The notes: generated by a model not told the origin, from the letters alone. DNA of 64,000 nt from Giardia intestinalis (GCA_000002435.2 CM018793.1), one strand, 5' to 3'; positions 6,431-64,000 are shown, counted from the stretch's first letter. Translations and numbers: made by a program.

Positions 6431-6441
6431 CTTCCAAAAAA

Positions 6442-8049
6442 ATGTATTCGCTGGGCCTCCCGAATCTTCCTCACACTTACAGATCAGACCGACAGAGATT
6501 GTTTGTTGAGGAAGACCGCACATACGTAACACTCAGAGACGAGAAGAGCCACTGTTTGCTCCTTAGTTTAAGAGAAAAAGGTGTTTACCAATATCTTCCC
6601 ATCCTGGTCTCCACGTCTCAATACATTCTAGTTGAAGATGAGGTAGAATACGCGGATGAAATCGCATGCAACCTGACCTCATCAACGCTGAAGTCTGCTA
6701 ATTCCATTCGAGCAATTGTAGTTGATGACCCTGCATACAGCTCCTTTATCGCTAGCCCCACTGAGGAACCAAATAGCTCTCTGCAAAAGAACTTTGCTAA
6801 GAGTATCACATACCACGCCGTCTACAGCATCAATCCCACCAATCTTATATTGATTCTTTACTCCCGCCTCTCCCTTGATGTGCAGTTCTATCACATTATT
6901 TTGAAGAAGAAACTGATTATCAAGGAATATACGCGGATTCTACCCAATGCAGTGTCAGTCTCTGCTGTTGTCGAAACAATGAAGGTGGATAACCAGATTT
7001 TCATAGGGGCGTACGACCGGCTATACAGTCTCACATTCCCTAGACTAAAGGGTCGCGAGCTTCACATGTTTATTGAGCCTCCAGAAATAAATCTGGTTCT
7101 ATTTGGCAGGCTTATCTCTGGCTACAAACTTAGTATAAACTTTATCCCCACAAATGCAGTGGTTGGACAGCCTAGCAAAGAGAATTGTGGGCCTGATCTT
7201 CCCAGGGAGTCCACGCAGAAGAGCCAACGCAGTGCTGTAGATGGAGAGCTTCTCAATTGCGACGTGGAGCGATTACCCACGCCTTCCGAGAGTGCTATGC
7301 TCGCCGCTGATCAGCACCAGGACAATTACAATCCAGTAACTCTGATTAGCACGAACAACGCCGCAACCATGGATCTTGCTGACTTCGGTGCTGTCCCAGA
7401 CACTCTGGGAGTGGAGGAGGTTAGAGCTGCGTTGCAGAGGGGCAGTGAGGGAGGGCTGCACCGATTTCCATCCAAGGCAGACACTGTGGTCACCCCATTT
7501 AATGTGCAGGACACAGAGCACGGTACTAACATATATCCCAATAGTACCGATCATCCTACACGCGCAGTCGCCTGCTCTTCTTATAGTGATGAGGCTAACG
7601 CATACATGCGTAATCAGCTACAAAGCATGGTGAGTGCCTCCACGGCGTGTGTGGTATTGATTGGTGGGGTTGTGCGCGCTAACGGAAGAAAGTACAACAA
7701 CAAGCGCATACTATACATACCGATAAGCAACATGAATAACTGGGTTTATCAGACGCTGGGGGAATCGAAAGCCATATGGCAGGACTGGGACATTTCCTTC
7801 TTGGAGCGGGAAAAGATAATAGCATTTGGGGGGCGGCGGCGACGCCTCTCATCCGACCTTCGAGTGATCGACCTATCGAAGGGTACTGTGTACGTATGTA
7901 GTCCACTCTATGGGTGTTTGGTTACTCCGAGAAGAAAGGCATCAATCTTCCTTTTCTACGATAAGGGGGTTCGGAAACTGCGAATAGAGTCGGGCTGTAC
8001 TCAAACAGAAGTATTACGAGATGTGGCGGAGCTTGTTTTGCCGATGTGA
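6442..8049 (+). CDS. Hypothetical protein.
   Basis: ATG at 6442 follows ...TAACTTCCAAAAAA, 11 bp after the previous stop. 535-aa ORF with no recognisable domain. Confidence 0.6.
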   Translation: MYSLGLPNLPHTYRSDRQRLFVEEDRTYVTLRDEKSHCLLLSLREKGVYQYLPILVSTSQYILVEDEVEYADEIACNLTSSTLKSANSIRAIVVDDPAYSSFIASPTEEPNSSLQKNFAKSITYHAVYSINPTNLILILYSRLSLDVQFYHIILKKKLIIKEYTRILPNAVSVSAVVETMKVDNQIFIGAYDRLYSLTFPRLKGRELHMFIEPPEINLVLFGRLISGYKLSINFIPTNAVVGQPSKENCGPDLPRESTQKSQRSAVDGELLNCDVERLPTPSESAMLAADQHQDNYNPVTLISTNNAATMDLADFGAVPDTLGVEEVRAALQRGSEGGLHRFPSKADTVVTPFNVQDTEHGTNIYPNSTDHPTRAVACSSYSDEANAYMRNQLQSMVSASTACVVLIGGVVRANGRKYNNKRILYIPISNMNNWVYQTLGESKAIWQDWDISFLEREKIIAFGGRRRRLSSDLRVIDLSKGTVYVCSPLYGCLVTPRRKASIFLFYDKGVRKLRIESGCTQTEVLRDVAELVLPM

Positions 8050-19184: not shown

Positions 19185-19904
19185 ACTTTAAATTTTTTAC
19201 ACAGGAGAATTTCGGTAGGTGTTGTACTAAGTTTGTCGGCTTGAAAATGTTTGTATGCTGGGTCGCTCCCTGCAACCAGGAAGACAGGAGTGCACCGCAC
19301 ATCTTGCCCATCTTGGTCATCTTCTCCTGATAGTTTCAGTGATCTACCTCAAGTAGATTGGCGAGCTACTGCTGCTATCGATGTATCAAGCTATCTAGTG
19401 GGTTGACACTTATGATGGCCTATCTTTAGACTATTTACATGATTATCATAACCCTAGTCATAGTCTAAACCAGAGTCTAAAAAAGTCAAAACATTACATG
19501 CATCCATTTCATCCCAAAGCAAAAGCTATCTCTCTGCCCTTGCCATCTTGACTACAGAGCAGCAGAACAGATAGCAAGTGGTAAGTCGTTCCTCACAGGC
19601 TAATCAAAGAGCACTTTTTTTTGAATTTTTTGAAATAGAATCTAACACGGATGCGTTTTAAAGGTGATCAAGATTGAAATTACTTTCATGTGTTTCACCT
19701 AAGACCTTCTGTACAGAGCAGCCAACCACTAGGAGGCAGCTTGTCAAAGTGTACACAGAGACTACGCTCGTTTTGACCGCCAGTTTACTCAGTGACTACA
19801 AGAAATGGTGTGGGGCCGGTCATCCTAAAGCTGTAGTCTACAGATCAGGAGTGAGGCTGTGAGGGCGAAAAGGCAGCTAACCAACAGGGTGTCAATCAGC
19901 CTAT

Positions 19905-22178
19905 CTACGGCTTCTGCTTGCGCTTGCTCTGCATTTCCTCCTCTGACTCATCAAAAGAGGAGTCATCATAGCTTGACTCTTGTTCAGAGGCTGCTCTTCG
20001 CTTGCTCTTCCTCCTGTTCTTTCGTTTATGTGCTTCCCGATCGAAGGAATCGTTATGTGCTATGCGTTGTTGGAGCCTAGAGACGTGAGAGGCTTCATTT
20101 GGAAACGTTGTACCGGAGTGTTCTTCACTAGCCGAAGTATATGACGACAGCTCGCTCTCATCGCTTTCGTCTTGAGCTGAATTGTTGGTGTGTTTCGCAC
20201 TGAAAGCGCCAGACGTAGATTGGCTCTCCTCGTCGCTACTTGTATTAAGAATCTTGTGGCGCCCAGCTTCTCGGGCAATTCGAGCAGCCTCCTCAATGGA
20301 CCCCTTTAATAACTTTCTCTCTATTTGCTTTTCCCGTTCTTGTTGAAGCTCCTCTTTTTCCTTGGAGCTGAGTACAGATGTGACAATCTTGGTGACCTTT
20401 AAGAGATCGTCTCTCTCCTCTTCATCGTCTGCATCAGTATGCTCGCCTTCTGGTTGGCGGATCCCTGTAGCTGATGCCATCTGCTGTTCTGATGCAGGGT
20501 GTTGCGTAGATATACCAGGCTGCTTTCCAACTGATAAATTAATATTGCTGGCCAATCCGTAGCTCAATGCTATATCTGTTAGGTTGAGTTCAGATGCCGG
20601 GGGAAACACCTCCCGATCACCTTGGACATGGATGGATTTAGCATATGAAACTATCGCTTTTTGTGCTAGGTGCTTTATGTATGTATCTGTGATGCAAAGC
20701 TCTGTAAGCTTCTGGCGTATGGACACGACGGTCCTTAGCTTCACCGTCTTCTTCTGATAGTCAATCTTTGCCTCGTCCAGCCTCTTCGTGAACCCCTGCT
20801 CCTGATCTGTTAGGAATAGAAGTGAGAAGCCAGGGAGGTTCATTCTTGCTGCACGACCTGCTCTGTGTGCGTAGGTGATCACACCATCTGGACAGTCGAA
20901 GTGCACCACCCAGTGAACAATAGGAAGGTCTACACCACGGGCACACATGTCTGTGGTTATAAGGGCAGCTGTGCGCATCCCAGAGAATTCGATAAAGGTA
21001 TCGTGGCGCTTCCCAGCCTTCATCCTTCCACTGAGGCACATGATAGGTATTCCTGGCTCACAGAGCTTAAAGCTTTCACAGAGAAAAGCTGCCTGGCGGG
21101 CTGTAGCAACGAAAATCACGATCTTGCTGTTGCTCTTGCTCTTTAGAAAGCTAAACAGAATGTCTATCTTGTCTGCCGGATGTACTGTCATGATGATGTT
21201 TGTCAAATTTGGAGGGAGCTTTATACCTCCCGTGTCTGGGCAAGAAGAGGTAACAAACTGTATGTTCTCTCCGTATGTATCTGATGTAATGTCTTTCTGT
21301 GAGATACCCGCTAACTGTGCCAGTGATATCCCATCAGCTTTGTAGAGATCTTTTCCTTTCGGCTTTTCTTTCAAATCGTCTGTCTCCTGCTGGACAAGCT
21401 GATCAAGATTTGCCACTGTCACTACTCCTGTATTCATATCAGCAATCTTCAACATGTGCTCTGCTATTCCAAAGTACTTTATTAATTTGATGATGGCCTT
21501 GCGCACAAGAGGCGTTTCTATTGCCGTAAAGAAGCCTAGCCAGAGCTGCTCGCTCTGCTGTGGTATGTACTTTATGATAGAAAAAATATCAGCATAGAAT
21601 CCCTTTTCAAGTAGGTTATCAACCTCGTCAAAGATCAGAACGCGAAGATTGTCAGCTGAAAACTGGATGCAAGAGGAAAGCTGGTGGAGAAGCCTGCCTG
21701 GAGTAGCTATTATGACATTCATAGACATGAGCACACGTTGCTCTTCCTTGACGTCGTGGCCGCCAGTGATGAGGCCGACAGACATTTTGTATTTTCGCCC
21801 GAGAACGTTGAGGACAGTGAAGGTCTGGACACAAAGCTCGGCTGTAGGAAGAAGAATGAGCGCGCCCAGGCCGTCTAGACGCTGCCATTGAAGGGATATA
21901 AGCCGCTGAAGTAAGGGTATCAGGAACGCTAGAGTCTTGCCACTACCCGTCCTGCTGAGCCCGAAAACGGCCACAGACTCTCCTGTAAACAGAGGAATAG
22001 TGTACCTTTGAATTGGGGTCATCGTCTTAAAACCGCTCTGGGCGAGGTTGTGCTTGAGGGTTTCGTCTATGTCTAGTGTTTGAAACGAATGTTCTTGAAC
22101 ATTCTCCTGTTTAGTATCCTCAGCAGGAGCCAAGAGCGACGGCCCCCTGCGATATGCGCGCCGCTTGTGAGTGGGCAT
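19905..22178 (-). CDS. DEAD-box (DEVD variant) ATP-dependent RNA helicase, ribosome-biogenesis type.
   Basis: Motifs: Q motif FKTMTPIQ, motif I TGSGKTLAF, Ia PTAEL, Ib IIATPGRL, II DEVD, V/VI ARGVDLP...HRAGRAAR, plus a basic/acidic C-tail. The track ORF runs to 22400, overlapping the dynein 3' end. In-frame ATGs are at 22220 and 22178. The dynein AGTGAAC poly(A) signal at 22227-22233 argues for 22178 (aaaataattcaagttATG). Confidence 0.75.
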   Translation of the reverse strand: MPTHKRRAYRRGPSLLAPAEDTKQENVQEHSFQTLDIDETLKHNLAQSGFKTMTPIQRYTIPLFTGESVAVFGLSRTGSGKTLAFLIPLLQRLISLQWQRLDGLGALILLPTAELCVQTFTVLNVLGRKYKMSVGLITGGHDVKEEQRVLMSMNVIIATPGRLLHQLSSCIQFSADNLRVLIFDEVDNLLEKGFYADIFSIIKYIPQQSEQLWLGFFTAIETPLVRKAIIKLIKYFGIAEHMLKIADMNTGVVTVANLDQLVQQETDDLKEKPKGKDLYKADGISLAQLAGISQKDITSDTYGENIQFVTSSCPDTGGIKLPPNLTNIIMTVHPADKIDILFSFLKSKSNSKIVIFVATARQAAFLCESFKLCEPGIPIMCLSGRMKAGKRHDTFIEFSGMRTAALITTDMCARGVDLPIVHWVVHFDCPDGVITYAHRAGRAARMNLPGFSLLFLTDQEQGFTKRLDEAKIDYQKKTVKLRTVVSIRQKLTELCITDTYIKHLAQKAIVSYAKSIHVQGDREVFPPASELNLTDIALSYGLASNINLSVGKQPGISTQHPASEQQMASATGIRQPEGEHTDADDEEERDDLLKVTKIVTSVLSSKEKEELQQEREKQIERKLLKGSIEEAARIAREAGRHKILNTSSDEESQSTSGAFSAKHTNNSAQDESDESELSSYTSASEEHSGTTFPNEASHVSRLQQRIAHNDSFDREAHKRKNRRKSKRRAASEQESSYDDSSFDESEEEMQSKRKQKP

Positions 22179-36877: not shown

Positions 36878-36914
36878 GGCCAAAAATTAACTTGCAGACT
36901 TTTTGATTTCGGGA

Positions 36915-36921
36915 ATTTACT
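36915..36921 (-). terminator. Polyadenylation signal AGTAAAT, 3-9 nt after the stop of beta-tubulin copy 1.
   Basis: Minus strand reads TGAGCGAGTAAATTCCCG. Confidence 0.5.
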
Positions 36922-36924
36922 CGC

Positions 36925-38268
36925 TCAAGCGTACTCGTCGCCGAAGTCCTCCTCCTCCTCGAACTCCTCGCCCTCGTCGACGCCGGCCTCCTGGTACTGC
37001 TGGTACTCGGAGACGAGGTCGTTCATGTTCGACTCGGCCTCTGTGAACTCCATCTCGTCCATCCCCTCGCCCGTGTACCAGTGGAGGAAGGCCTTGCGGC
37101 GGAACATCGCCGTGAACTGCTCGCCGACGCGCTTGAAGAGCTCCTGGATGCACGTGGAGTTTCCGATGAAGGTCGCGGCCATCTTGAGCCCGCGCGGCGG
37201 GATGTCGCAGACGCTGACCTTCATGTTGTTCGGGATCCACTCGACGAAGTACGAGGAGTTCTTGTTCTGGATGTTGAGCATCTGCTCGTCGACCTCCTTC
37301 GTGGACATGCGCCCGCGGAACATGGCGGCGGCGGTCAGGTAGCGGCCGTGGCGCGGGTCGGACGCGGCCATCATGTTCTTGTTGTCGAACATCTGGGAGA
37401 CGAGCTCGGGGACCGTGAGGGCGCGGTAGATCTGGGAGCCGCGGCTCGTCAGGGGCGCGAAGCCGACGAGGAAGAAGTGGAGGCGCGGGAACGGGATCAG
37501 GTTGACCGCGAGCTTGCGGAGGTCGGCGTTGAGCTGGCCGGGGAAGCGGAGGCAGCTCGTGCAGCCGGACATGACGAGCGAGACGAGGTGGTTGAGGTCT
37601 CCGTAGGTGGGGCACGTGAGCTTGAGCGTGCGGAAGCAGATGTCGTAGAGGGCCTCGTTGTCGATGCAGAAGACCTCGTCGGCGTGCTCGACGAGCTGGT
37701 GGACCGAGAGGGTCGCGTTGTACGGCTCAACGACCGTGTCCGAGACCTTCGGGGACGGGACGACGGAGAACGTGCACATCATGCGGTCGGGGTACTCCTC
37801 GCGGATCTTCGCGATGAGGAGCGTGCCCATCCCGGCGCCCGTGCCGCCCCCCAGGGAGTGGCAGATCTGGAAGCCCTGGAGGCAGTCGCACGCCTCGGAC
37901 TCCTTGCGGACGACGTCGAGGACGGCGTCGACGAGCTCGGCGCCCTCCGTGTAGTGGCCCTTCGCCCAGTTGTTCCCGGCGCCGGACTGGCCGAAGACGA
38001 AGTTGTCGGGGCGGAAGATCTGCCCGAAGGGGCCTGCGCGGACAGAGTCCATCGTGCCCGGCTCGAGGTCCACGAGGATGGCGCGGGGGACGTACCTGCC
38101 GCCCGCCGCCTCGTTGAAGTAGACGTTGATCCTCTCGATCTGGAGCTCCGAGTCCCCGCGGTACTCGCCGCTCGGGTCGACGCCGTGCTCGTCGGAGATG
38201 ACCTCCCAGAACTTCGCGCCGATCTGGTTGCCGCACTGGCCTGCCTGGATGTGGACGATCTCACGCAT
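36925..38268 (-). CDS. Beta-tubulin (copy 1 of 3).
   Basis: 447 aa [23 protein letters not shown]...[12 protein letters not shown]...EEDFGDEYA, canonical beta-tubulin throughout. The track's longer start (38289) is TTG; the real ATG is at 38268 after AATTTAAAA. High GC and strong codon bias. Confidence 0.95.
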
Positions 38269-38608
38269 TTTTAAATTTTGGCAGTCCAAAAAATTCCCAA
38301 GGAATATTAAATTGAATTCTAATATGCTTCGTAATTTTCAATCTTCAGTGTAGTGTATTCGACAACAAACTAAAGGCCCGCAACACACTGCATGCCAAAT
38401 TTCAGCGACCATTATTTGACCATCGTACTTGCATGCCTGGGTCATCGCACTACTTAATGGTCTTCAACTTGTATTCTGCCACCCGTCCAATAGATTGAGA
38501 TAGGTCTTAGCTTAAGTCTAGAACTACTCATAAGGGCGGCCCACTTCAGGATCCCTGCTTTGTCTACCTAGCCCTAATCACAAGTCCAGAGAAGCATACT
38601 CAGTCACA

Positions 38609-50653: not shown

Positions 50654-53060
50654 ATAGTCAGAATATTTACAATTAATAGCGAATTGACAGCGGGCTCCTA
50701 GCTAGGCTTATTGCCTCTAAGACACCGAAATATATAATAGCATAGCTGTTAACTAGGTAACCGATTAAGATTCGGTTAATTGTAAATGCATATTTTGCCT
50801 CTATTAACGAGGAAGGCAACGACTATTGCTCCAGTATTCTTCAATAATCTGAGCAGTTTTGCAGGGCTTTCCCCATGCATTTTTAAAGAGGTTGGATTAT
50901 GATTATAGCAATCTGAAGAATACAAATTTTTAAGACTCACTGCATATTACCTTTAACTCGCTAAGCGATGCAGAAAAAGATGTCAGCTTGGCCTGCAGTA
51001 GTTCTCTGACCCTTCTGCCTCAGTGGCCTCTCTGATGAGCAACAGCCAACTGGAAAGTCGTCAATCGCTGGAACGCTCATACCACATAGTGGCCGCTCAA
51101 GAGGTGCAAGGGCTGCACACACCGCTGTGGACGGGATGTTCGGTCAGCGGCTCTCCGGTGCGTTGAGCTGGCCCTTAGTTGCCACTCTGTGGCCTCCGAT
51201 AGGGACGAGCCTTATGAAGAGGCTTGCTTGGAGAACTCCTGACATTGCGACGCCTATCCTGAGAAGACAATGCTAACTCGCATAAGGTACTTCCACTGCT
51301 CATTCCCGCTGATCCAGATAAACGCCTTGCATGCTTCAGATTGTCCTCTGTTGCCAGCAGAGCAGCCACCGCCCTGTGTGTCTCCTTCAGACACATGCCC
51401 ATCTATGACGGCGCTTCCTGTCTCTTCTCTGAAGAGGCACAACCGTCCCAATCCAGACACCTTGCTCTCAGCACACACCTCGTATCTATCAGAGGCCAGG
51501 TGTTCGTCGACCATATTCCATGAGCATCAGTACTGTGCCACTATGTTACTTCCTGTCCTGAGGGGCGTGCTCTGACCATCCCAGTGTCTCTATGATAGGA
51601 GAGCTGTGGATCCGGAGGTGGTTGTTGCTTTCTGGCCCTCTCTGCTGTCCAGTAGACTGCAAGAGCGCCCTTCGGAAGTCGGTCCCCTAACCTCCTGTTC
51701 TCTCGGGGAAGTGGTCCTTGGATAGCGCCACTCGGAAGACTCCCGAAGCCTCACTACACGAGCTGCTGCACCTGGGGACTCCTGGAGTATCCTTATAAAG
51801 TCGCCCAGTGACGCAAGTCCTACCCATTGTCAGCGGAGGTCTCGGCTCTCAAGGACATCTCAGGGACAGCACGTCAGCGCCACTTCCTGACAGGGGCATG
51901 CGGAAGATCTGCTTCCTCTTGTGGATCCATCATTGGCATCGAGAGCACTAAGCCTGCCATCTTCGCTGGAGGTGTCAGCAGACGGTACTCCGCATCCACC
52001 CACGGAAGGGCTGAATCGTGTGCTGTCGTCATAATATTCCATATTAATGCAGATAAACCTCCCGGTGGCACTTGGGGATTCCCGACACGGTGCGCTAATA
52101 TACTACTTGCTCGAGCTATTGCTCAGATCTGCGATCCCCGTGGTCTGGGCCAGGTGCCTTGAATGGCCTCCAGCCCTAGTAGGAGCACAGGTCGGTGCTC
52201 CTTGTTCCAAACAAGCATTCCATCTATTGTGCCCAGCCCTGAAAGACCCGCTCCTTTGCCGGTATCCGAGCGCTGTCTGCCCCCAGGGGGCATGCTGGCA
52301 TTCAACAGAGAGGCTTGCAGATACCACAGATCTCGGTGGTAAAGCGCCTGGGCCCCTGCCCTGGGCACGAGTAAGAAGCCCCAGCAGTACTTCGCTGCGG
52401 ACTATGACACGGTTCCTGTGTGGTGCCAGGCGATGCACAGCAGCCACGAGTGTGCAGTCCTCTGCGCCTGCCCACCGATGACGCAGCCGGGGCCTGTGGA
52501 GCAGCAGGGTCGAGACACACATATGGGAGGCGCCGACGGGCATTGGACCATTGGCCGTCAAATGGTGGGTATGACTTGAGAGGTGGCTCGCGGCAGGTAA
52601 TTTACTCGACCGCAGCAGACAGGATCGCCTTTGGCCTAAAACCGCCATGTGTCGGTAGATGCACCTGTGTCTTCCACCACTGTTCTGTGTGCCATTATTA
52701 TATTCTGGCGTCTCTAGATTTGGCAGAGGCATCTAACAAGGAATTCACAACTAGAGGCTGGCCCAACAGCCAGAGAGGCGTCTATTGGGCTGTACACCCA
52801 TGCACCGGATTGTCTTGAAGGGGTCGTTCCCTCTCTAATCACGTGCTCTGTCCCCGGTCCGTACCAGCGAAAGTCTTACTGAGACAATGCACTGGCAACG
52901 GACACAATAACCGGTGTTAGGGTAACTAACTGAGACACCCACTGCCCAGGATACTGACCAGACCACCAGGCAGCGATTGGCCGGAATAAGGGAGAGCCGC
53001 TCTCCTTGGCATACTCTACTATGTGCGTGCAAGAATGGATGGACCATAAAGTGAGGCCAC
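50654..53060. other. 2.4-kb block with no credible ORF: AT-rich for the first ~350 bp, then moderately GC-rich.
   Basis: Only short overlapping ORFs (209 aa or less) with no codon bias and no cysteine periodicity. Contrasts with 7-50 bp intergenic spacers elsewhere. Confidence 0.4.
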
Positions 53061-55484
53061 TCAATTCTTCTTTCGGAAGACGAAAAACCAAACCAGCACA
53101 GCCGCCACACCGCCGACGACAAGGACCACGCCGATGGCGATGCCAGAGATGGCACTAGACGAGAGGGCGGACTTTTTGGAGGTGTTGTCGTACTCCAGAC
53201 ATATGGGTGTGGCTGCGCCCTCTGGAACCACGCAGAGGCTGCACTTGGAGATCGCCTTGTGACACGCCTTGCACGTGTTTTCGGAGAAGTAGTACCCGGT
53301 CAGGCAGTCGAAGCATGCCTTCCCATGGGGGCAGGTGGCGCAGCCCTTGGAGCACGCCTTGCATGCCCCCTTCTCCAGGTAGAACCCGCTGTTACAGGCG
53401 TTGCAGACCCCACTACTACACATTGCACAGTTCGTCGGGCATGTAAGGAGCGTTCCGTTGTACGTTATCCCATACCCAGCCACGATGCTATCACACCAGC
53501 CGTTATTCTCCTTCGTACAGACAGTCTTCCCGGGGAGGAGTGTGGAGGTGTAGCACCCCCCGTTGAGGCTGAAGGAGTTTGAGCTGCAGAGAGCACATCT
53601 ACCGTCGGCGACATTCACGCACGCGGTACCAGCCGCCCGCGAGCTGGAGGAGGTGCACACCCCGTTGTTGGGGTACTCCGTGCTCTTGGCACAGCGCGAG
53701 CAGTAGCTGGTCCCGCTCACCGTGAGCCCGCACTCTGCACAGCTGCTGTCCTTCACGCACTGCGGGACGCACGATCCCTTGGCACCGTCGCTGTACTGCA
53801 GCCGCTTCCTGGCAGGGCAGGAGGTGCAGTCGCCGGATGCCGGTCCGCTGCACGTGGCGCACTCAGAGCTGCACGGCTTGCATCCTCCCGAGCCCTCGAC
53901 GTAGAACCCGTCCCTGCACGTCTTGCACTTGGATTCCGACTCGCAGACTACGCAGTTGCCGAGCGTGCACGCCACGCACCTCGAGACGCCGCCCACGGTG
54001 GCCTTGTAGTACCCGGCGGAGCCCAGGCAGTCCTTCACGCACAGACCGTGGGGATCGAGGCTGTTGCCATCGGTACACTTTGTGCACACGTCTCTGTCCT
54101 CGCACGTGTCGCAGTTGGGGTCCTTGCACTTGGTCGCCACGCACTGACTGCTGGAGAGTGTGTAGCCATACTTGCACTTCTTACAGCTCGACTCGTCACA
54201 CTCAGCGCAGTTCTCCACCGCGCACCCGACACACTTCCCGTCCTTCAGATAGGACCCGTCATCGCACGCGCAGCTGTGGACCGAGGATGAGGACTCCTGC
54301 ACGCCCTTCTGCCCCTTGGGACAGCTGGCCAGGCAGCTCCTCTTATCCAGGCTCAGGTAGAGGTCGCGGCACTCCAGACACTGAAGACCACTGTCCTTCA
54401 TCTCACACCTTTGGCATCCCTCTATTCCCCCGTTGGCTGAGTCCCCGCAGCGCCAGCATCTGCTATTCTTGGTGAACACCTCTTTGGTTGAACTGTTACA
54501 TGTGGTGCAAACGTTGCCCTGCATTGCTTGACAAATATAAGATTCTATTTGATTCGGAGCATTATTAAATAAGTAGCATCCACCATAAAACAAGAAGTAT
54601 TGCCCGCTGCTATCATTCTTACAAGATGTGCATTTTCCTGTTCTAGGATCTTTCGTACAAACATTACCAAATTCGCTGATTGACTTACAGAGGCCATTCT
54701 GAGGCGCTTCTGATGAATTGGCGCATTGTGTGCACAACGATCGTCCCTGTATATCTATAGTATTTCTTGGTAAACAGATACTGTTACCAATTATACTATC
54801 TGCGGTATAACACCCAAACTGACTCCAGACGTAACCCCTAGGGCAAACATAACAATAGCCAAAAACAGCTGTGCTAGAAGCAGGCTTGCATCGAAAATCA
54901 AAAGGGCACATAACTCGTTCTGAGCATTCGCTACAGCTGGGTATAGTGTTCCCTGGCAACCTATGTTGGTTACAGTACTGACACCTATATACACCACTAC
55001 TCCCGCCAAAGCCTACTATATCTCCGCAGTAGATACAGCGTTCAGGAGAGGTCGCATTAGGGTTGGTAAAAGTTATTGGGGTATAATACCCACCGCCCTT
55101 TCCGCACTCTTGACAAATCCCATTTTCTGCACGATCGCAGATACTTGCTTTCCATCTGCCAGACAATTCATAGCAGCCACCGTAAAATAAGAAGTAACCA
55201 TTGTTACATCCTGTGCACCATCCACCTTTCGGCGATTTAACACAACCGGCTTTATTAACTTTTTCGTCTGTAGTAGCAACACATGTGCCATTGATGGGAA
55301 CATAATCCTGGCTACACTCTGTGCAAAAAAAAGTAGTTAAGTCCACTAGGCATCTATCCTGAAGACACTGTGGGATCCTGCCTTCACAAGAATACCCAAA
55401 GCCATTGTAGTATACAAACGTTTCCTCAGAGAAAGACCCTGCCAGAAAACAAGTCAGAATCACGATCAGCGAAGCCAAAATCAT
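53061..55484 (-). CDS. High-cysteine membrane protein (VSP-like ectodomain with non-VSP tail).
   Basis: Signal peptide MILASLIVILTCFLAGSFS. About 11 percent Cys with many CxxC and GGCY motifs. One TM segment (GIAIGVVLVVGGVAAVLVWFFVF) and a short cytoplasmic tail RKKN, not the VSP-specific CRGKA. Track start 55526 is GTG; the first ATG is at 55484. Confidence 0.8.
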   Translation of the reverse strand: MILASLIVILTCFLAGSFSEETFVYYNGFGYSCEGRIPQCLQDRCLVDLTTFFCTECSQDYVPINGTCVATTDEKVNKAGCVKSPKGGWCTGCNNGYFLFYGGCYELSGRWKASICDRAENGICQECGKGGGYYTPITFTNPNATSPERCIYCGDIVGFGGSSGVYRCQYCNQHRLPGNTIPSCSECSERVMCPFDFRCKPASSTAVFGYCYVCPRGYVWSQFGCYTADSIIGNSICLPRNTIDIQGRSLCTQCANSSEAPQNGLCKSISEFGNVCTKDPRTGKCTSCKNDSSGQYFLFYGGCYLFNNAPNQIESYICQAMQGNVCTTCNSSTKEVFTKNSRCWRCGDSANGGIEGCQRCEMKDSGLQCLECRDLYLSLDKRSCLASCPKGQKGVQESSSSVHSCACDDGSYLKDGKCVGCAVENCAECDESSCKKCKYGYTLSSSQCVATKCKDPNCDTCEDRDVCTKCTDGNSLDPHGLCVKDCLGSAGYYKATVGGVSRCVACTLGNCVVCESESKCKTCRDGFYVEGSGGCKPCSSECATCSGPASGDCTSCPARKRLQYSDGAKGSCVPQCVKDSSCAECGLTVSGTSYCSRCAKSTEYPNNGVCTSSSSRAAGTACVNVADGRCALCSSNSFSLNGGCYTSTLLPGKTVCTKENNGWCDSIVAGYGITYNGTLLTCPTNCAMCSSGVCNACNSGFYLEKGACKACSKGCATCPHGKACFDCLTGYYFSENTCKACHKAISKCSLCVVPEGAATPICLEYDNTSKKSALSSSAISGIAIGVVLVVGGVAAVLVWFFVFRKKN

Positions 55485-57279
55485 GGGGCTATTATTCTTT
55501 ATTGGATACCTATGAAAGTTACACACTAATCCGAGTCAGCCACTGAAAGCCTTGGCTTAGAATTACAACTGTCAGAATAATACCCCTTGTACTTCTTACA
55601 GACAGACTACAGCCGGCAGACCCATGGAAGGGCTCACTCTACTTACACTAGTCATCGACTCACACGGCGACCTGAGCAGCCTGTAATCTGGCTCTGCAAT
55701 GAAACAGTTAGGCGATCTGTTTGTCTCCATTCTCAAGCAGACTTGCCTAATTCAAAATTACTAACATACGCTTCAAAGTTTCGCAGGACTTACAGTACAG
55801 AAAACTCATTGGGAACATGTTCCGAGCAAACACGTTCGATACACAACCACCTCACAAAGGACTCTCTGCTATCAAGAAGATCCTCTCGAGGTCTATGAGT
55901 GGGGTAACTGTAAGCAAGCTCCTTGAAGAATGGCTGTTTTCAGGCGCCTGTCCATCCCCTTACCCCGATGTTCCAGGAGCCAGCATCAGTCATATCTTCG
56001 TTGAGCAAGGGCACTGTGGAGGGAACCCTGCAGGGCCTAACGAGCGTTCGGAGGTGCAGCAGAACAACGACGAGACACGGTGTGCCATCGCATAGGCACT
56101 AAGATCTCGCTGACCTGTGCACTGAAGGATGCAGGCCATCCGAGTCCTTCTCTGTATGCAATCGTAGCCTGCTGCTTTCGTCGGTGTTTGTCCTCCACGA
56201 GGGCCCTTATTACCCGAAGCCCTAGAGCCCTGAGGTCGTACTGCGGCAAGCATCTGCTCTACAGGTGCTGACGTACAGGCCACTTTACTTTAGTACTGGC
56301 AGTCGGAGAATACTTCGACGTGGTTTGTTCAGAGACGCCAGGAGTACAGCCAAGTACCTTGCCGACAAACACAGCATCCAGCCCCAGAAGAACATCTAGT
56401 CCTCCTGAGGCACGATGCGGCCATGTTTGTCTTCTGCTGGTACCGGGCCCAAACGGACAGCCTGCTTACCGAAGAAGAACGTATGCAGTTAGACACCTCT
56501 GAAGGCCTGGCCTGCCCTAGCAACCCAATTCACTGCGGAGTGCTCTTTGCTGCCCCCGCCCCCGGTGCACGGAGATTTAATCAAGTAAATCGCTATTTGG
56601 ACATTGAAACATTCCCTTCCTTATTATCAACAGCCGCCCTGCAGCCGCTACCGGAAGGACCCGCGTGTATGACCTTTGCTCTAACGCTAAGCAAGGGTGC
56701 TTTAATGTGTGGCAACGTAGAACTCGTTTCGACAAAGCATGCGGCCTTATCCACTCTCTCTATGTGCCTATTGGATAAGGCTCAATCGAGTACACACAAG
56801 CCTTTTGTTTATCAAAAAATACTACCTCTGGCCGAGCCTACCTCTCATAACCAAAACGAAGGCACTTACTGACGTGCAACACGATGGGAAAACGGACCCA
56901 CACTGTATCTTGAGGTAGCAGTCAATGATTAGGCAGGTGGTGCTTGCATTAGCGCATCAAAGGGAAAATTATGGACCACTGCCTCTGAACTTAATGTCAA
57001 GTTTGTACAGCCTAGCCCCATATGGGACGAAGCTTATGCGCATACATGAGTGGATTTGACTGCATAATCACATTGAGTTGAGATACAGACGACACAGGGT
57101 ATTACGGCCCAGTCACATGGAGTAATCGAGCTTCCTGTGGAGAACACCCTGAAAGGCTAGACCATCTGGAAAAGATACTTGACCTCACAACATTTGTAGA
57201 TCCATCACATATAGAGATCCGCTCATAGCCAGTGTGGTCATCGCATGGGATCCGTCGATGATGCGCTTATTATTTAAGT
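55485..57279. other. 1.8-kb block without convincing genes between the high-cysteine protein's 5' end and the VSP fragment.
   Basis: Only short ORFs, for example 56423..56872 (149 aa, true ATG, no features). Confidence 0.35.
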
Positions 57280-58086
57280 CTATAGCTTTCCTCTACAAAG
57301 GAGCCACCAGCGGCGGAAGCCGGCCAAAGCAGCAACAACGAGAAAGCCGGCCGCTGCCCCCTGCGATCGCTGCCCTCTTCCTGACCAGCTCCTTGGCTGG
57401 AACGCAGACGCCCTTCTGAGGACTGCGTCGATCTCACACATGCACACCCCCTGGTTCGATGAGGCCCTGGCGCCGCACCCTTCTGCACACGTCCGCTGGT
57501 CTACTTGGACGTTGTGGCCCGAAGTGACACACGAGAGGCACCTACCCGACTCATCGCAGGCAGCACACAACGGCATGCCAGAGGAACACTCGACTGCGGA
57601 CACACACCCGGATCTATCCAGCGCCGGCAGGAAGCCCCGCTCGCACCAGCACCTCCGCACGCCGCCGGACACCTCTCCCACCACCTTGTCCCCGGTGCAC
57701 TCCTCCAGGCACGACTGCCCGTCCAGGCTCACGAAAAGCTCCTCCGCGCACTCTGTGCAGAAGGATGTATGCCCGCAGGTCTTGCACCCCGGAGTGGCGC
57801 AGGGCAGGCACGCGTCTCCGTATGCGTAGTACCCGTCCACACAGGCGCCGGGGTCGACGCAGCTCCCGGTGGCGGCACCCGAGGCCTTCTTCAGGAGCTT
57901 GTCAGAGGGGCACCTGGTGCAGCGGCCGGGGCCAGGGGCAGTGCACTCCAGGCACCCAGGGGCACAGGGCTGCAGGCTCCCATCGGCCGATATCCAGTAC
58001 CCCTTCTTGGTCGTTGTGCACTTCCCGCCTGACTGCTTATCACAGATAGTACTTCCCGGATAGTACTTCGTTGTGTAGCAGCCCGT
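57280..58086 (-). pseudogene. Variant-specific surface protein (VSP) 3' fragment: C-terminal ~268 codons without a start codon or signal peptide. Tail is ...WWLLCRGKL.
   Basis: Minus-strand frame is open from the stop at 58087-58089 down to TAG at 57280-57282. It reads ...GKCTTTKKGYWISADGSLQPCAPGCLECTAPGPGRCTRCPSDKLLKKASGAATGSCVDPGACVDGYYAYGDACLPCATPGCKTC...TM...FRRWWLLCRGKL*. There is no in-frame ATG until deep inside. The track 'M' at 57840 is GTG. Confidence 0.6.
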
Positions 58087-58211
58087 TCATCAGGAAGGCC
58101 GCTTCAGAGCAGGCAGGGCAACCTAGGAGTGCACACCCGGCCCGGCGCTTGTCACAAACGACCACTCACAGCGGCAAACGGAGGTGCAGGCCTGCTTAGA
58201 ATGCGCGGAGA

Positions 58212-58218
58212 GTTTACT
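58212..58218 (-). terminator. Polyadenylation signal AGTAAAC after beta-tubulin copy 2.
   Basis: Minus strand reads TGAGTGAGTAAACTCTCCG. Confidence 0.5.
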
Positions 58219-58221
58219 CAC

Positions 58222-59565
58222 TCAGGCGTACTCGTCGCCGAAGTCCTCCTCCTCCTCGAACTCCTCGCCCTCGTCGACGCCGGCCTCCTGGTACTGCTGG
58301 TACTCGGAGACGAGGTCGTTCATGTTCGACTCGGCCTCTGTGAACTCCATCTCGTCCATCCCCTCGCCCGTGTACCAGTGGAGGAAGGCCTTGCGGCGGA
58401 ACATCGCCGTGAACTGCTCGCCGACGCGCTTGAAGAGCTCCTGGATGCACGTGGAGTTTCCGATGAAGGTCGCGGCCATCTTGAGCCCGCGCGGCGGGAT
58501 GTCGCAGACGCTGACCTTCATGTTGTTCGGGATCCACTCGACGAAGTACGAGGAGTTCTTGTTCTGGATGTTGAGCATCTGCTCGTCGACCTCCTTCGTG
58601 GACATGCGCCCGCGGAACATGGCGGCGGCGGTCAGGTAGCGGCCGTGGCGCGGGTCGGACGCGGCCATCATGTTCTTGTTGTCGAACATCTGGGAGACGA
58701 GCTCGGGGACCGTGAGGGCGCGGTAGATCTGGGAGCCGCGGCTCGTCAGGGGCGCGAAGCCGACGAGGAAGAAGTGGAGGCGCGGGAACGGGATCAGGTT
58801 GACCGCGAGCTTGCGGAGGTCGGCGTTGAGCTGGCCGGGGAAGCGGAGGCAGCTCGTGCAGCCGGACATGACGAGCGAGACGAGGTGGTTGAGGTCTCCG
58901 TAGGTGGGGCACGTGAGCTTGAGCGTGCGGAAGCAGATGTCGTAGAGGGCCTCGTTGTCGATGCAGAAGACCTCGTCGGCGTGCTCGACGAGCTGGTGGA
59001 CCGAGAGGGTCGCGTTGTACGGCTCAACGACCGTGTCCGAGACCTTCGGGGACGGGACGACGGAGAACGTGCACATCATGCGGTCGGGGTACTCCTCGCG
59101 GATCTTCGCGATGAGGAGCGTGCCCATCCCGGCGCCCGTGCCGCCCCCCAGGGAGTGGCAGATCTGGAAGCCCTGGAGGCAGTCGCACGCCTCGGACTCC
59201 TTGCGGACGACGTCGAGGACGGCGTCGACGAGCTCGGCGCCCTCCGTGTAGTGGCCCTTCGCCCAGTTGTTCCCGGCGCCGGACTGGCCGAAGACGAAGT
59301 TGTCGGGGCGGAAGATCTGCCCGAAGGGGCCTGCGCGGACAGAGTCCATCGTGCCCGGCTCGAGGTCCACGAGGATGGCGCGGGGGACGTACCTGCCGCC
59401 CGCCGCCTCGTTGAAGTAGACGTTGATCCTCTCGATCTGGAGCTCCGAGTCCCCGCGGTACTCGCCGCTCGGGTCGACGCCGTGCTCGTCGGAGATGACC
59501 TCCCAGAACTTCGCGCCGATCTGGTTGCCGCACTGGCCTGCCTGGATGTGGACAATCTCACGCAT
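58222..59565 (-). CDS. Beta-tubulin (copy 2 of 3).
   Basis: 447 aa, identical in protein sequence to copy 1. ATG at 59565 is preceded by GATTTAAAA, with an in-frame TAA at -6. Confidence 0.95.
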
Positions 59566-59744
59566 TTTTAAATCGGCGCCGGCGGAATCTGGATTTGGCG
59601 GCGGCCAAGTTCAGATTGCGTAACAATAAATATGCAATAATGACATGAATGCAACCACTGTTATATACCATAGGTGGTCCTGTGGGAATCCTTACTTAAT
59701 GGTACAAGGCGATAAGTCAACAAAGTGTTGGAGCACCTACGGAA

Positions 59745-62804: not shown

Positions 62805-64000
62805 GCAATCTGAACTTGGCCGCCGCCAAATCCAGATTCCGCCGGCGCCGATTTAAAAATGCGTGAGATTGTCCACATCCAGGCAGGCCAGTGCGGCAAC
62901 CAGATCGGCGCGAAGTTCTGGGAGGTCATCTCCGACGAGCACGGCGTCGACCCGAGCGGCGAGTACCGCGGGGACTCGGAGCTCCAGATCGAGAGGATCA
63001 ACGTCTACTTCAACGAGGCGGCGGGCGGCAGGTACGTCCCCCGCGCCATCCTCGTGGACCTCGAGCCGGGCACGATGGACTCTGTCCGCGCAGGCCCCTT
63101 CGGGCAGATCTTCCGCCCCGACAACTTCGTCTTCGGCCAGTCCGGCGCCGGGAACAACTGGGCGAAGGGCCACTACACGGAGGGCGCCGAGCTCGTCGAC
63201 GCCGTCCTCGACGTCGTCCGCAAGGAGTCCGAGGCGTGCGACTGCCTCCAGGGCTTCCAGATCTGCCACTCCCTGGGGGGCGGCACGGGCGCCGGGATGG
63301 GCACGCTCCTCATCGCGAAGATCCGCGAGGAGTACCCCGACCGCATGATGTGCACGTTCTCCGTCGTCCCGTCCCCGAAGGTCTCGGACACGGTCGTTGA
63401 GCCGTACAACGCGACCCTCTCGGTCCACCAGCTCGTCGAGCACGCCGACGAGGTCTTCTGCATCGACAACGAGGCCCTCTACGACATCTGCTTCCGCACG
63501 CTCAAGCTCACGTGCCCCACCTACGGAGACCTCAACCACCTCGTCTCGCTCGTCATGTCCGGCTGCACGAGCTGCCTCCGCTTCCCCGGCCAGCTCAACG
63601 CCGACCTCCGCAAGCTCGCGGTCAACCTGATCCCGTTCCCGCGCCTCCACTTCTTCCTCGTCGGCTTCGCGCCCCTGACGAGCCGCGGCTCCCAGATCTA
63701 CCGCGCCCTCACGGTCCCCGAGCTCGTCTCCCAGATGTTCGACAACAAGAACATGATGGCCGCGTCCGACCCGCGCCACGGCCGCTACCTGACCGCCGCC
63801 GCCATGTTCCGCGGGCGCATGTCCACGAAGGAGGTCGACGAGCAGATGCTCAACATCCAGAACAAGAACTCCTCGTACTTCGTCGAGTGGATCCCGAACA
63901 ACATGAAGGTCAGCGTCTGCGACATCCCGCCGCGCGGGCTCAAGATGGCCGCGACCTTCATCGGAAACTCCACGTGCATCCAGGAGCTCTTCAAGCGCGT
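62805..64000. repeat. Inverted-repeat arm B (54-bp flank plus beta-tubulin copy 3; continues past the window).
   Basis: Reverse complement of 58222..59619. The antisense spurious ORFs mirror those of copy 2 (for example 62798..63001 vs 59423..59623). Confidence 0.85.
62859..64000 (+). CDS. Beta-tubulin (copy 3 of 3), 3'-truncated by the window end.
   Basis: ATG at 62859 after ATTTAAAA. The first ~380 codons are identical to copy 2 wherever checked (including ATT at codon 4). Runs off the window. Confidence 0.95.

What the first reader, a model, noticed from the sequence alone, without database searches (positions are those of the whole stretch)
57280..58221. Truncated VSP gene fragment abutting the 3' end of beta-tubulin copy 2
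An open frame of ~268 codons encodes a typical VSP C-terminal half (CxxC spacing, GYWI/GYY motifs, TM helix) but ends CRGKL rather than the invariant CRGKA. It has no start codon or signal peptide. The frame is closed by a stop only ~135 bp from the tubulin stop. This looks like a VSP gene whose 5' half was lost when the tubulin unit was inserted or duplicated here. The A to L change at the last residue is itself unusual.
Basis: partly seen in the sequence, partly recalled or inferred. Interest (0 to 1): 0.6.

Follow-up and report, generated by a model that had tools for sequence, protein, structure and literature searches.

The report
Known VSP-like pseudogene beside beta-tubulin
This is a decayed piece of a Giardia surface-antigen-like gene that was copied together with a beta-tubulin gene. 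Its odd CRGKL ending marks the edge of that copy rather than a point mutation. The ORF is already catalogued as GL50803_25892, so the finding is ordinary.

Summary
On the minus strand, 58086-57283 is a 268-codon open frame, cysteine-rich (11.6% Cys, 7 CXXC), ending CRGKL*. It has no usable start and lies about 130 nt from the stop of beta-tubulin copy 2.

The window is Giardia intestinalis WB, and the feature is already known. The last 98 codons are XP_001707376.1 'VSP', which is GL50803_25892, vsp #75 in Adam et al. 2010. That paper lists its CRGKL tail.

- The same tubulin, 86-nt linker and fragment junction follows tubulin copy 3 in assemblage A2 (DH) and E (P15). The 5' truncation therefore predates the A/E split and was not made at this site.
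- Copy 2 and its fragment form one arm (57286-59619) of a head-to-head inverted repeat. Homology to the copy 3 fragment and its relatives stops exactly after the Lys codon of CRGK.
- Leu and the stop codon come from unrelated flanking DNA. An A2 isolate reads CRGKLQT* at the same place.
- The more complete relatives seen end ...RGKRIG...SKSM, not CRGKA.
- The fragment has frameshifts, a transmembrane segment broken by two arginines, and no Inr or poly(A) signal.

It is best read as a pseudogene fragment, probably kept open by gene conversion. Interest is low.

The parts
58222..59565 (-). Beta-tubulin copy 2 CDS (447 aa; KAE8305773.1 'Beta-tubulin 2').
   Evidence: ORF list. Exact protein look-up. 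It differs from copy 1 at 2 of 1344 nt. It is 100% identical to copy 3 over the part of copy 3 that lies in the window.
58212..58218 (-). Tubulin poly(A) signal AGTAAAC. It is the only AGTRAAY on this strand between 57150 and 58230.
   Evidence: Motif scan. RNA-type Logan contigs L001 and L011 carry poly(A) right after the equivalent AGTAAATTCCCG of the copy 1 type. Homology between copy 1 and copy 2 ends at 58210.
58124..58209 (-). 86-nt linker between the tubulin transcript end and the VSP-derived DNA. It is shared with the copy 3 locus of DH and is not demonstrably VSP-derived.
   Evidence: Alignments. Smith-Waterman scores against the upstream parts of relatives L020, L008 and L007 fall within the shuffle range.
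57286..58123 (-). VSP-like (HCMP-type) gene fragment. It matches roughly the C-terminal 295 codons of a relative of at least 640 codons. Lesions: a 2-nt deletion at 58084/58083, a 1-nt deletion at 57417/57416, a 3-nt deletion at 57375/57374, a 2-nt deletion at 57358/57357, and Leu-Cys changed to Arg-Arg in the membrane segment.
   Evidence: Pfam VSP hit. Homologues P0001-P0006 and P0082. Nucleotide alignments. Longer relatives.
58087..58092 (-). It arises from the out-of-frame reading of C-CTG-ATG-AAC after the 2-nt deletion.
57280..58086 (-).
57280..57576 (-). ATG-initiated 98-aa ORF, MPLCAACDES...CRGKL. This is XP_001707376.1 'VSP' = GL50803_25892 = vsp #75 (clade III, chromosome 5, no Inr, CRGKL tail).
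   Evidence: Exact-sequence look-up. Adam et al. 2010, PMC2996952, text and Additional file 1. ATG position.
57280..57285 (-). CTA TAG: the Leu codon and stop codon, supplied by unique DNA just outside the duplicated unit.
   Evidence: Homology to DH L009, P15 L007 and L020 ends at 57286. The flank beyond aligns at chance. The A2 orthologue L017 reads CTA CAG ACT TAA, giving CRGKLQT*.
57286..59619 (.). One arm (2334 nt) of a head-to-head inverted repeat. It holds 54 nt upstream of the ATG, tubulin copy 2, the linker, and the fragment up to CRGK.
   Evidence: Inverted repeat I1, 58424-59619 against 62805-64000, 100% complementary. L009 aligns with 59573-57286. In A2 isolates the two fragment ends are 99.6% identical up to the junction and 39% after it.
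62805..64000 (+). The start of the other arm (tubulin copy 3), cut off by the window end. Its fragment would lie beyond 64196.
   Evidence: The WB-identical Logan contig L010 runs from the 487-aa gene through tubulin into 239 nt of fragment sequence.
55527..57279 (.). Unique 1.75-kb spacer between the fragment and the HCMP gene (53061-55484, minus strand). It shows no similarity to any relative's flank or to the GS interval.
   Evidence: It is 94% identical in the A2-type contigs L017-L019.

Best explanation
The feature is a pseudogene fragment of a small VSP-like (high-cysteine membrane protein type) subfamily. It travels with beta-tubulin as part of a 2.3-kb inverted repeat.

Inferred history:
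1. A VSP-like gene of the ...WWLL-x-RGKRIG...SKSM* type lay between tubulin copy 3 and the Cfap43-like gene. It lost its 5' half or more before assemblages A and E split.
2. Later, in the lineage leading to assemblage A, one block was copied in inverted orientation to the other side of the dipeptidase and 487-aa gene pair. The copying was either a duplication or a gene-conversion tract running past the tubulin 3' end. The block held 54 nt of upstream sequence, tubulin, the 86-nt linker, and the fragment up to the Lys codon of CRGK. This gave copy 2 plus the fragment seen here.
3. The outer edge of that block falls after AAG. The next unique bases, CTA TAG, happen to add Leu and a stop, which produces 'CRGKL*'.

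The fragment has no promoter-like initiator, no signal peptide, three separate frame disturbances, a membrane segment broken by two arginines, and no poly(A) signal. It most likely makes no functional protein. Its long open frame and dN/dS below 1 are best explained by recurrent gene conversion, both between the two arms and with more complete relatives.

Shown directly: the coordinates, the lesions, the shared junction, the homology end-point, and the prior annotation. Inferred: the direction and order of events, and gene conversion as the homogenising force.
For: Identity of the locus:
- The window is WB. Its proteins match KAE83057xx / XP_0017073xx exactly.
- The 98-aa tail ORF is XP_001707376.1 'VSP', which is GL50803_25892 with a CRGKL tail in Adam 2010.
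- The 2020 accessions KAE8305772 (HCMP) and KAE8305773 (tubulin) are consecutive, so no protein is now called in this interval.

Shared junction:
- DH L009 aligns with 59573-57286 across tubulin, linker and fragment.
- P15 L013 aligns with 59617-57385.
- The genes downstream of L009 and L013 are orthologous, 85.8% identical over 3.1 kb.
- In GS, homology to the WB sequence downstream of copy 2 stops at 58206, and no fragment follows.

The 3' edge:
- Alignments show identity up to ...TGTAGAGGAAAG and unrelated sequence after it.
- The WB flank beyond the junction scores at chance against all relatives: 8-9 against shuffle means of 8.9-9.3. DH copy 3 against P15 L007 scores 18, and P15 L007 against L020 scores 31; 0 of 500 shuffles reach either value.
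- In A2 isolates, the copy 2 side and copy 3 side fragments are 99.6% identical up to the junction and 39% beyond it.

Signs of decay:
- The Kyte-Doolittle maximum is 1.44, against 2.0-2.5 in relatives with an unbroken hydrophobic segment.
- There is no AGTRAAY after the stop and no PyAATGTT initiator.
- The A2 orthologue has lost the TAG and reads CRGKLQT*.
- The DH copy 3 fragment falls out of frame before the membrane segment.

Concerted evolution:
- P15 copy 3 against P15 L007 is 96% identical, while P15 copy 3 against A2 copy 3 is 79.6%.
- WB and A2 copy 2 fragments are 82% identical over their last 243 nt, while the first 100 nt of unique flank next to them is 91% identical, and the 2.6-kb A2 contig (L017), which also covers that fragment tail, is 94% identical to WB overall.
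Against: - dN/dS between fragment copies is about 0.35, not 1. I attribute this to imported, already-selected variation, but it could reflect some constraint.
- The 268-codon frame is longer than composition alone predicts (P about 5e-4).
- Franzen et al. 2013 included CRGKL-ending ATG ORFs in their vsp set and report transcription at all 178 vsps. I could not retrieve the value for this ORF.
- WB copy 3's downstream sequence lies outside the window. The inverted repeat in WB itself is supported only indirectly by contig L010, whose path through the repeat is ambiguous.
- The DH and P15 draft contigs cross the tubulin repeat and may be partly mis-joined.
Confidence: 0.8

Rival explanations
1. 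An intact VSP gene sat at this site, and insertion or duplication of the tubulin unit here removed its 5' half. The terminal Ala later mutated to Leu.
For: - The fragment begins about 100 nt after the tubulin stop and has no start codon or signal peptide.
- Tubulin copies share only their transcribed unit, so the tubulin unit looks mobile.
Against: - The same junction exists at the copy 3 locus in A2 and E.
- No VSP sequence lies upstream of copy 2. Only 179 nt separate it from the dipeptidase gene.
- A non-VSP linker separates tubulin and the fragment.
- Leu and the stop lie in DNA unrelated to any relative, so this is not a substitution.
- The more complete relatives seen end RGKRIG...SKSM, not CRGKA.
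Confidence: 0.08
2. The CRGKL-ending ORF is a real, expressed small cysteine-rich protein, either the 98-aa GL50803_25892 model or a longer non-ATG product. This is how it was annotated in 2007-2010.
For: - It was annotated as 'VSP' and counted as a complete vsp.
- Its tail class was included among vsps reported as transcribed.
- dN/dS is about 0.35.
- The frame is open for 268 codons.
Against: - There is no Inr (confirmed) and no signal peptide.
- The membrane segment falls below the usual hydropathy threshold.
- The stretch before the membrane segment is read out of frame compared with the relatives.
- The stop codon is not conserved in A2, and the DH copy is frameshifted.
- There is no poly(A) signal.
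- No protein is called between the two neighbouring genes in the 2020 accession series.
Confidence: 0.07
3. The fragment is retained because it is useful as DNA or RNA. It could be a silent donor or acceptor cassette for recombination within the VSP-like subfamily. It could also be a source of VSP-homologous RNA, made by read-through from the highly expressed tubulin gene.
For: - Similarity to different relatives is patchy and mosaic, and copies within one genome evolve in concert.
- The WB-identical contig L010 runs from tubulin 239 nt into the fragment.
Against:
- Every member of the subfamily seen carries a lesion, so there may be no functional recipient.
- Whether L010 comes from RNA or DNA is unknown.
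- Gene conversion happens to pseudogenes without implying any function.
Confidence: 0.05

Closest known systems
GL50803_25892 (XP_001707376.1), vsp #75 of Adam et al. 2010, BMC Genomics 11:424
   Same: It is this very sequence. The 98-aa ORF at 57280-57576 (minus strand) matches exactly on clade III, chromosome 5, absence of an Inr, CRGKL tail, 9 Cys and 2 CXXC.
   Different: The catalogue treats it as a short complete vsp with an altered tail. Here it is shown to be the tail of a longer frameshifted fragment (57286-58123). The 'L*' comes from DNA outside a duplicated unit.
Truncated vsp pseudogenes without an ATG (three cases of 224, 329 and 902 bases in Adam et al. 2010)
   Same: These are short 3' vsp remnants in the middle of contigs with no in-frame start, interpreted as inactive pseudogenes.
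   Different: Those three end in CRGKA. This one does not, and it derives from a subfamily with a longer tail.
VSP-like high-cysteine membrane proteins with an extended cytoplasmic tail: GLP15_2952 (P15), the GL50803_100877 locus (WB), and ENA contig NODE_831 ORF P0082
   Same: They are 67-89% identical to the fragment and share its cysteine framework and its GF(LC/RR)WW(L/F)L membrane end. They are the closest relatives found.
   Different: They keep more 5' sequence and an unbroken hydrophobic segment, and they end RGKRIG...SKSM*. Each still has its own single lesion. None lies next to tubulin.
Identical inverted vsp gene pairs of the WB genome (10 pairs, Adam et al. 2010)
   Same: These are inverted duplications in WB that stay nearly identical, consistent with homogenisation between arms.
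   Different: Here the repeat unit is centred on a housekeeping gene (beta-tubulin) and carries only a dead vsp-like remnant as a passenger.

Membership tests
Giardia VSP (variant-specific surface protein, PF03302) | Sequence match to the family profile | tested here: met
   PF03302 scores 37.3 bits against a gathering score of 31.4. Only residues 2-67 match, at profile positions 220-282 of 397.
Giardia VSP (variant-specific surface protein, PF03302) | Cysteine-rich ectodomain with frequent CXXC (about 12% Cys) | tested here: met
   31 Cys in 267 residues (11.6%) and 7 CXXC.
Giardia VSP (variant-specific surface protein, PF03302) | N-terminal start codon with signal peptide (often with a PyAatgTT initiator) | tested here: not met
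   There is no start at the head of the frame. The in-frame ATGs at 57576 and 57441 lie in GC-rich context, and no PyAATGTT occurs in 57150-58230. Adam 2010 also lists 'No' Inr.
Giardia VSP (variant-specific surface protein, PF03302) | Conserved C-terminal transmembrane segment | tested here: not met
   The hydrophobic run is 14-15 residues, then Arg-Arg. The best 19-residue Kyte-Doolittle mean is 1.44, against 2.5 for a GS CRGKA VSP and 2.0-2.3 for the closest relatives. The stretch just before it is frameshifted.
Giardia VSP (variant-specific surface protein, PF03302) | Invariant cytoplasmic tail CRGKA followed by a stop | tested here: not met
   The tail is CRGKL*. Leu and the stop come from unrelated flank. 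The closest relatives read Y/R-RGK/R-RIG...SKSM*.
Giardia VSP (variant-specific surface protein, PF03302) | Poly(A) signal AGTPuAAPy shortly after the stop | tested here: not met
   The only AGTRAAY on this strand in 57150-58230 is the tubulin signal at 58218.
VSP-like HCMP subfamily with RGKRIG...SKSM tail (GLP15_2952 / GL50803_100877 / P0082) | Closest homology over the whole retained length, including the membrane end | tested here: met
   67% identity over 99% of the fragment to GLP15_2952. 88.9% nucleotide identity over 773 nt to L020. Alignment.
VSP-like HCMP subfamily with RGKRIG...SKSM tail (GLP15_2952 / GL50803_100877 / P0082) | Extended cytoplasmic tail of about 21 residues | tested here: not met
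   It is cut off after CRGK by the edge of the duplicated unit. The DH copy 3 fragment still keeps DNA homologous to the tail.
Pseudogene (non-processed, partial duplicate) | Disabling lesions compared with relatives, and no conserved reading frame among orthologues | tested here: met
   There are four indels, including two shared frameshifts, plus a 5' truncation. The stop codon differs in A2. The DH copy is out of frame.
Pseudogene (non-processed, partial duplicate) | Neutral substitution pattern (dN/dS near 1) | tested here: not met
   dN/dS is about 0.35 over 218 codons. This is probably confounded by gene conversion from relatives.
Pseudogene (non-processed, partial duplicate) | No transcription or translation of its own | not testable with these tools
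   No read-level RNA-seq or proteomics was available, and the held supplement of Franzen 2013 lacks this ORF.

The most novel reading that the evidence does not exclude
The fragment is not just debris. Because it sits in an inverted repeat with one of the most highly transcribed genes, it may be kept open by repeated gene conversion. It could then serve as a silent sequence cassette that exchanges patches with the small RGKRIG-tailed VSP-like subfamily. Alternatively, tubulin read-through into it could supply VSP-homologous RNA to the RNA-based silencing of surface-antigen genes.
Probability: 0.05. Interest if true: 0.5.

Novelty: already known. Interest (0 to 1): 0.15.

Why it matters
It matters little for biology at large. 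For Giardia annotation it settles one point. CRGKL is one of the eight variant tails that differ from CRGKA in the WB vsp catalogue. At GL50803_25892, one of the two CRGKL entries in that list, it is not a tolerated variant of the palmitoylated and citrullinated CRGKA motif. It is an accident of where a duplicated block ends, so it should not be used as evidence that the tail can vary. The locus also gives a clean small example of concerted evolution: the tubulin parts stay identical, and the passenger fragment tracks relatives in the same genome. Finally, it shows that draft assemblies of DH and P15 probably mis-join across the three tubulin copies.

Tried and rejected
- Exact-protein look-ups of the 186-aa GTG ORF and the 807-aa HCMP in the contig index found nothing. 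The WB chromosome is not in that index, so DNA beyond the window end could not be fetched.
- GL50803_100877 has no contig on record.
- I tested whether the 86-nt linker is a remnant of a more upstream VSP part, which would imply an internal deletion. Local alignments to L020, L008 and L007 score no better than shuffles, so I rejected this.
- I tested whether the WB flank after CRGK retains diverged tail homology, or carries a 20-nt insertion before 'CGCATC'. It scores at chance, so I rejected this.
- I looked for similarity of the 1.75-kb spacer to the GS 509-aa gene, or to the flanks in P15 and DH, with blastn at word size 7 and with tblastx. Nothing was found.
- P15 L007 is not syntenic with the window downstream of the fragment. 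Its dynein is a different paralogue, and its VSP538 is only 31% identical to the HCMP here.
- Literature searches for GL50803_25892 and GL50803_0025892 returned nothing. The held supplement of Franzen 2013 has no expression value for it.
- dN/dS was meant as a pseudogene test but is confounded by gene conversion.

Full report
**What is there**

On the minus strand, the frame from 58086 to 57283 is open for 268 codons and stops at TAG, 57282-57280. It is cysteine-rich: 31 Cys (11.6%) and 7 CXXC, with KKGYWI and VDGYYAYGD motifs, ending ...AAAGFLVVAALAGFRRWWLLCRGKL*. Pfam's VSP model matches above its gathering score, but only over residues 2-67. The frame is closed upstream by TGATGA at 58092-58087. 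That is 130 nt below the stop of beta-tubulin copy 2, whose CDS is 58222-59565 on the minus strand.

**Which genome, and is it known**

Seven neighbouring proteins match entries of Giardia intestinalis WB (ATCC 50803) exactly. They include the adjacent 'High cysteine membrane protein VSP-like' KAE8305772.1 and 'Beta-tubulin 2' KAE8305773.1, on a 4.02-Mb record.

The ATG-initiated last 98 codons of the frame (57576-57280) are exactly XP_001707376.1, named 'VSP'. Adam et al. 2010 (PMC2996952) name CRGKL in their list of eight variant vsp tails that differ from CRGKA. Their Additional file 1 has vsp #75 = GL50803_25892: clade III, chromosome 5, no Inr, tail CRGKL, 98 aa, 9 Cys, 2 CXXC. This matches the ORF here. 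Franzen et al. 2013 also accept CRGKL as a vsp tail class. In the 2020 accession series the HCMP and the tubulin are consecutive, so no protein is now called between them. The ORF and its odd tail are therefore already catalogued.

**Anatomy**

The three tubulin copies in the window are at 36925-38268 (minus), 58222-59565 (minus), and from about 62859 onward (plus, cut by the window end).
- Copy 1 shares with copy 2 only 8 nt before the ATG through about 17 nt after the start of the stop codon. Homology ends at 58210, just past the AGTAAAC poly(A) signal at 58218-58212.
- Next comes an 86-nt linker (58124-58209) with no detectable VSP similarity.
- VSP-derived DNA runs from about 58123 to 57286.

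Compared with its most complete relatives (ENA contig L020 ORF P0082, and P15 GLP15_2952), the fragment has the following lesions:
- A 2-nt deletion inside FLMNGG|CY at 58084/58083. This creates the TGATGA 'closing stop', so VSP homology actually continues about 40 nt further up in another frame.
- A 1-nt deletion at 57417/57416, a 3-nt deletion at 57375/57374 and a 2-nt deletion at 57358/57357. The pre-membrane stretch is therefore read out of frame, as RRASAFQPRSWSGRGQRSQG instead of TKDICVSAKELAKKRTAAIAGG.
- Leu-Cys changed to Arg-Arg inside the membrane segment. Its best 19-residue hydropathy is 1.44, against 2.0-2.5 in relatives with an unbroken hydrophobic segment.

No PyAATGTT initiator occurs in the region, and no AGTRAAY signal follows the stop.

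**The tail**

Alignments with the DH copy (L009), P15 L007 and L020 are collinear up to ...TGT AGA GGA AAG at 57286 and unrelated beyond it.
- The WB flank beyond the junction scores at chance against all relatives.
- The relatives' tails are significantly alike: 0 of 500 shuffles reach the observed scores for DH against P15, or for P15 against L020.
- The more complete relatives seen end Y/R-RGK/R-RIG(A/S)S...SKSM*.
- The orthologous copy 2 site in an A2-type isolate (Logan contigs L017-L019) has the same junction but reads CTA CAG ACT TAA, giving CRGKLQT*.

CRGKL is therefore 'CRGK' from a VSP-like tail, plus a Leu codon and a stop that belong to the unique flank. It is not an Ala-to-Leu substitution in CRGKA.

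**Origin**

- The DH (A2) contig L009 carries tubulin, the same linker and the same fragment, followed by a Cfap43-like gene.
- The P15 (E) contig L013 carries tubulin copy 3, a fragment starting at the same point, and the orthologous Cfap43-like gene, 85.8% identical over 3.1 kb.
- The truncated fragment next to tubulin is therefore older than the A/E split.
- In GS (B) the DNA after copy 2 has no fragment.
- In the window, copy 2 and copy 3 are head-to-head and 100% identical from 54 nt upstream of the ATG onward.
- In A2 isolates, the copy 2 side and copy 3 side fragment ends are 99.6% identical up to the junction and 39% after it.
- A WB-identical contig (L010) runs from the copy 3 side through tubulin into 239 nt of the same fragment.

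The simplest reading is a 2.33-kb inverted repeat whose arm in the window is 57286-59619. Copy 3's fragment still keeps tail-homologous DNA, so it is probably the older arm, and copy 2's arm was copied or converted from it. This ordering is inference.

**Why the frame is still open**

Copies group by genome rather than by locus.
- P15 copy 3 against P15 L007 is 96% identical, while P15 copy 3 against A2 copy 3 is 79.6%.
- WB and A2 copy 2 fragments are only 82% identical over their last 243 nt. The first 100 nt of unique flank beside them is 91% identical, and the 2.6-kb A2 contig, which includes that fragment tail, is 94% identical to WB overall.
- Differences are patchy and match other relatives.
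- dN/dS is about 0.35.

I attribute this to ectopic gene conversion that imports variation already filtered in more complete relatives. This is not proven. The subfamily is tiny, and every member seen has a lesion: one nonsense codon in L020, one frameshift in P15 L007, and an early stop in GL50803_100877.

**Verdict**

The fragment is a real, correctly described, but already catalogued vsp-family pseudogene. Interest is low. The one useful point is that the CRGKL tail of GL50803_25892 should not count as a natural variant of the CRGKA motif.

Noticed in passing
window 36908-38276 compared with 58205-59573 and 62851-64000: Tubulin copy 1 shares with copies 2 and 3 only the transcribed unit. 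This runs from the 8-nt ATTTAAAA initiator to about 17 nt after the start of the stop codon (the AGTAAAY signal). The CDS differs at 2 of 1344 nt. RNA-type contigs show poly(A) added right there. This fits either a retrocopy-like origin or gene-conversion tracts limited to the transcript.
   Followed up: partly
L014 (GS, AHHH01000188.1) 6257-7786 compared with window 55527-57279: In assemblage B, the interval between tubulin copy 2 and the VSP/HCMP gene holds a 509-aa ORF with a signal-peptide-like start and no Pfam hit. WB has no trace of it. WB has an unrelated 1.75-kb spacer instead. That spacer's 149-aa ORF (56423-56872, plus strand) is also called, in a version at least 90% identical at the protein level, in the A2-type Logan contigs.
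   Followed up: partly
window 50900-52850: A GC-rich (0.52-0.64) stretch between the UTP25 gene and the HCMP gene has no called protein. Its 209-aa ORF (52103-52732, minus strand) has no Pfam hit and is absent from the protein collection. It may be another decayed gene.
   Followed up: no
L009 (DH AHGT01000052.1) and L013 (P15 ACVC01000215.1): The DH contig joins copy 1's upstream genes (LysRS and others) to copy 3's downstream genes through the tubulin repeat. The P15 contig joins copy 1's dynein flank to the dipeptidase side. Both differ from the WB order and are probably joins made by collapsing the repeat.
   Followed up: partly
L008 (DH AHGT01000072.1) 19874-21001 compared with window 53045-54172: The 3' part of the HCMP gene in the window (KAE8305772.1) is 95% identical to a partial VSP at a DH contig end. 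It also has a 90%-cluster paralogue (KAE8302612.1) on another WB record. This is a second example of recently exchanged VSP-like sequence.
   Followed up: no
L009 10001-10822 (DH protein ESU-type, P0003): The DH copy of the fragment is deposited under the name 'Molecular chaperone, DnaJ family protein, partial'. This looks like a misannotation, probably driven by the cysteine repeats. No Pfam family is recorded for it.
   Followed up: no
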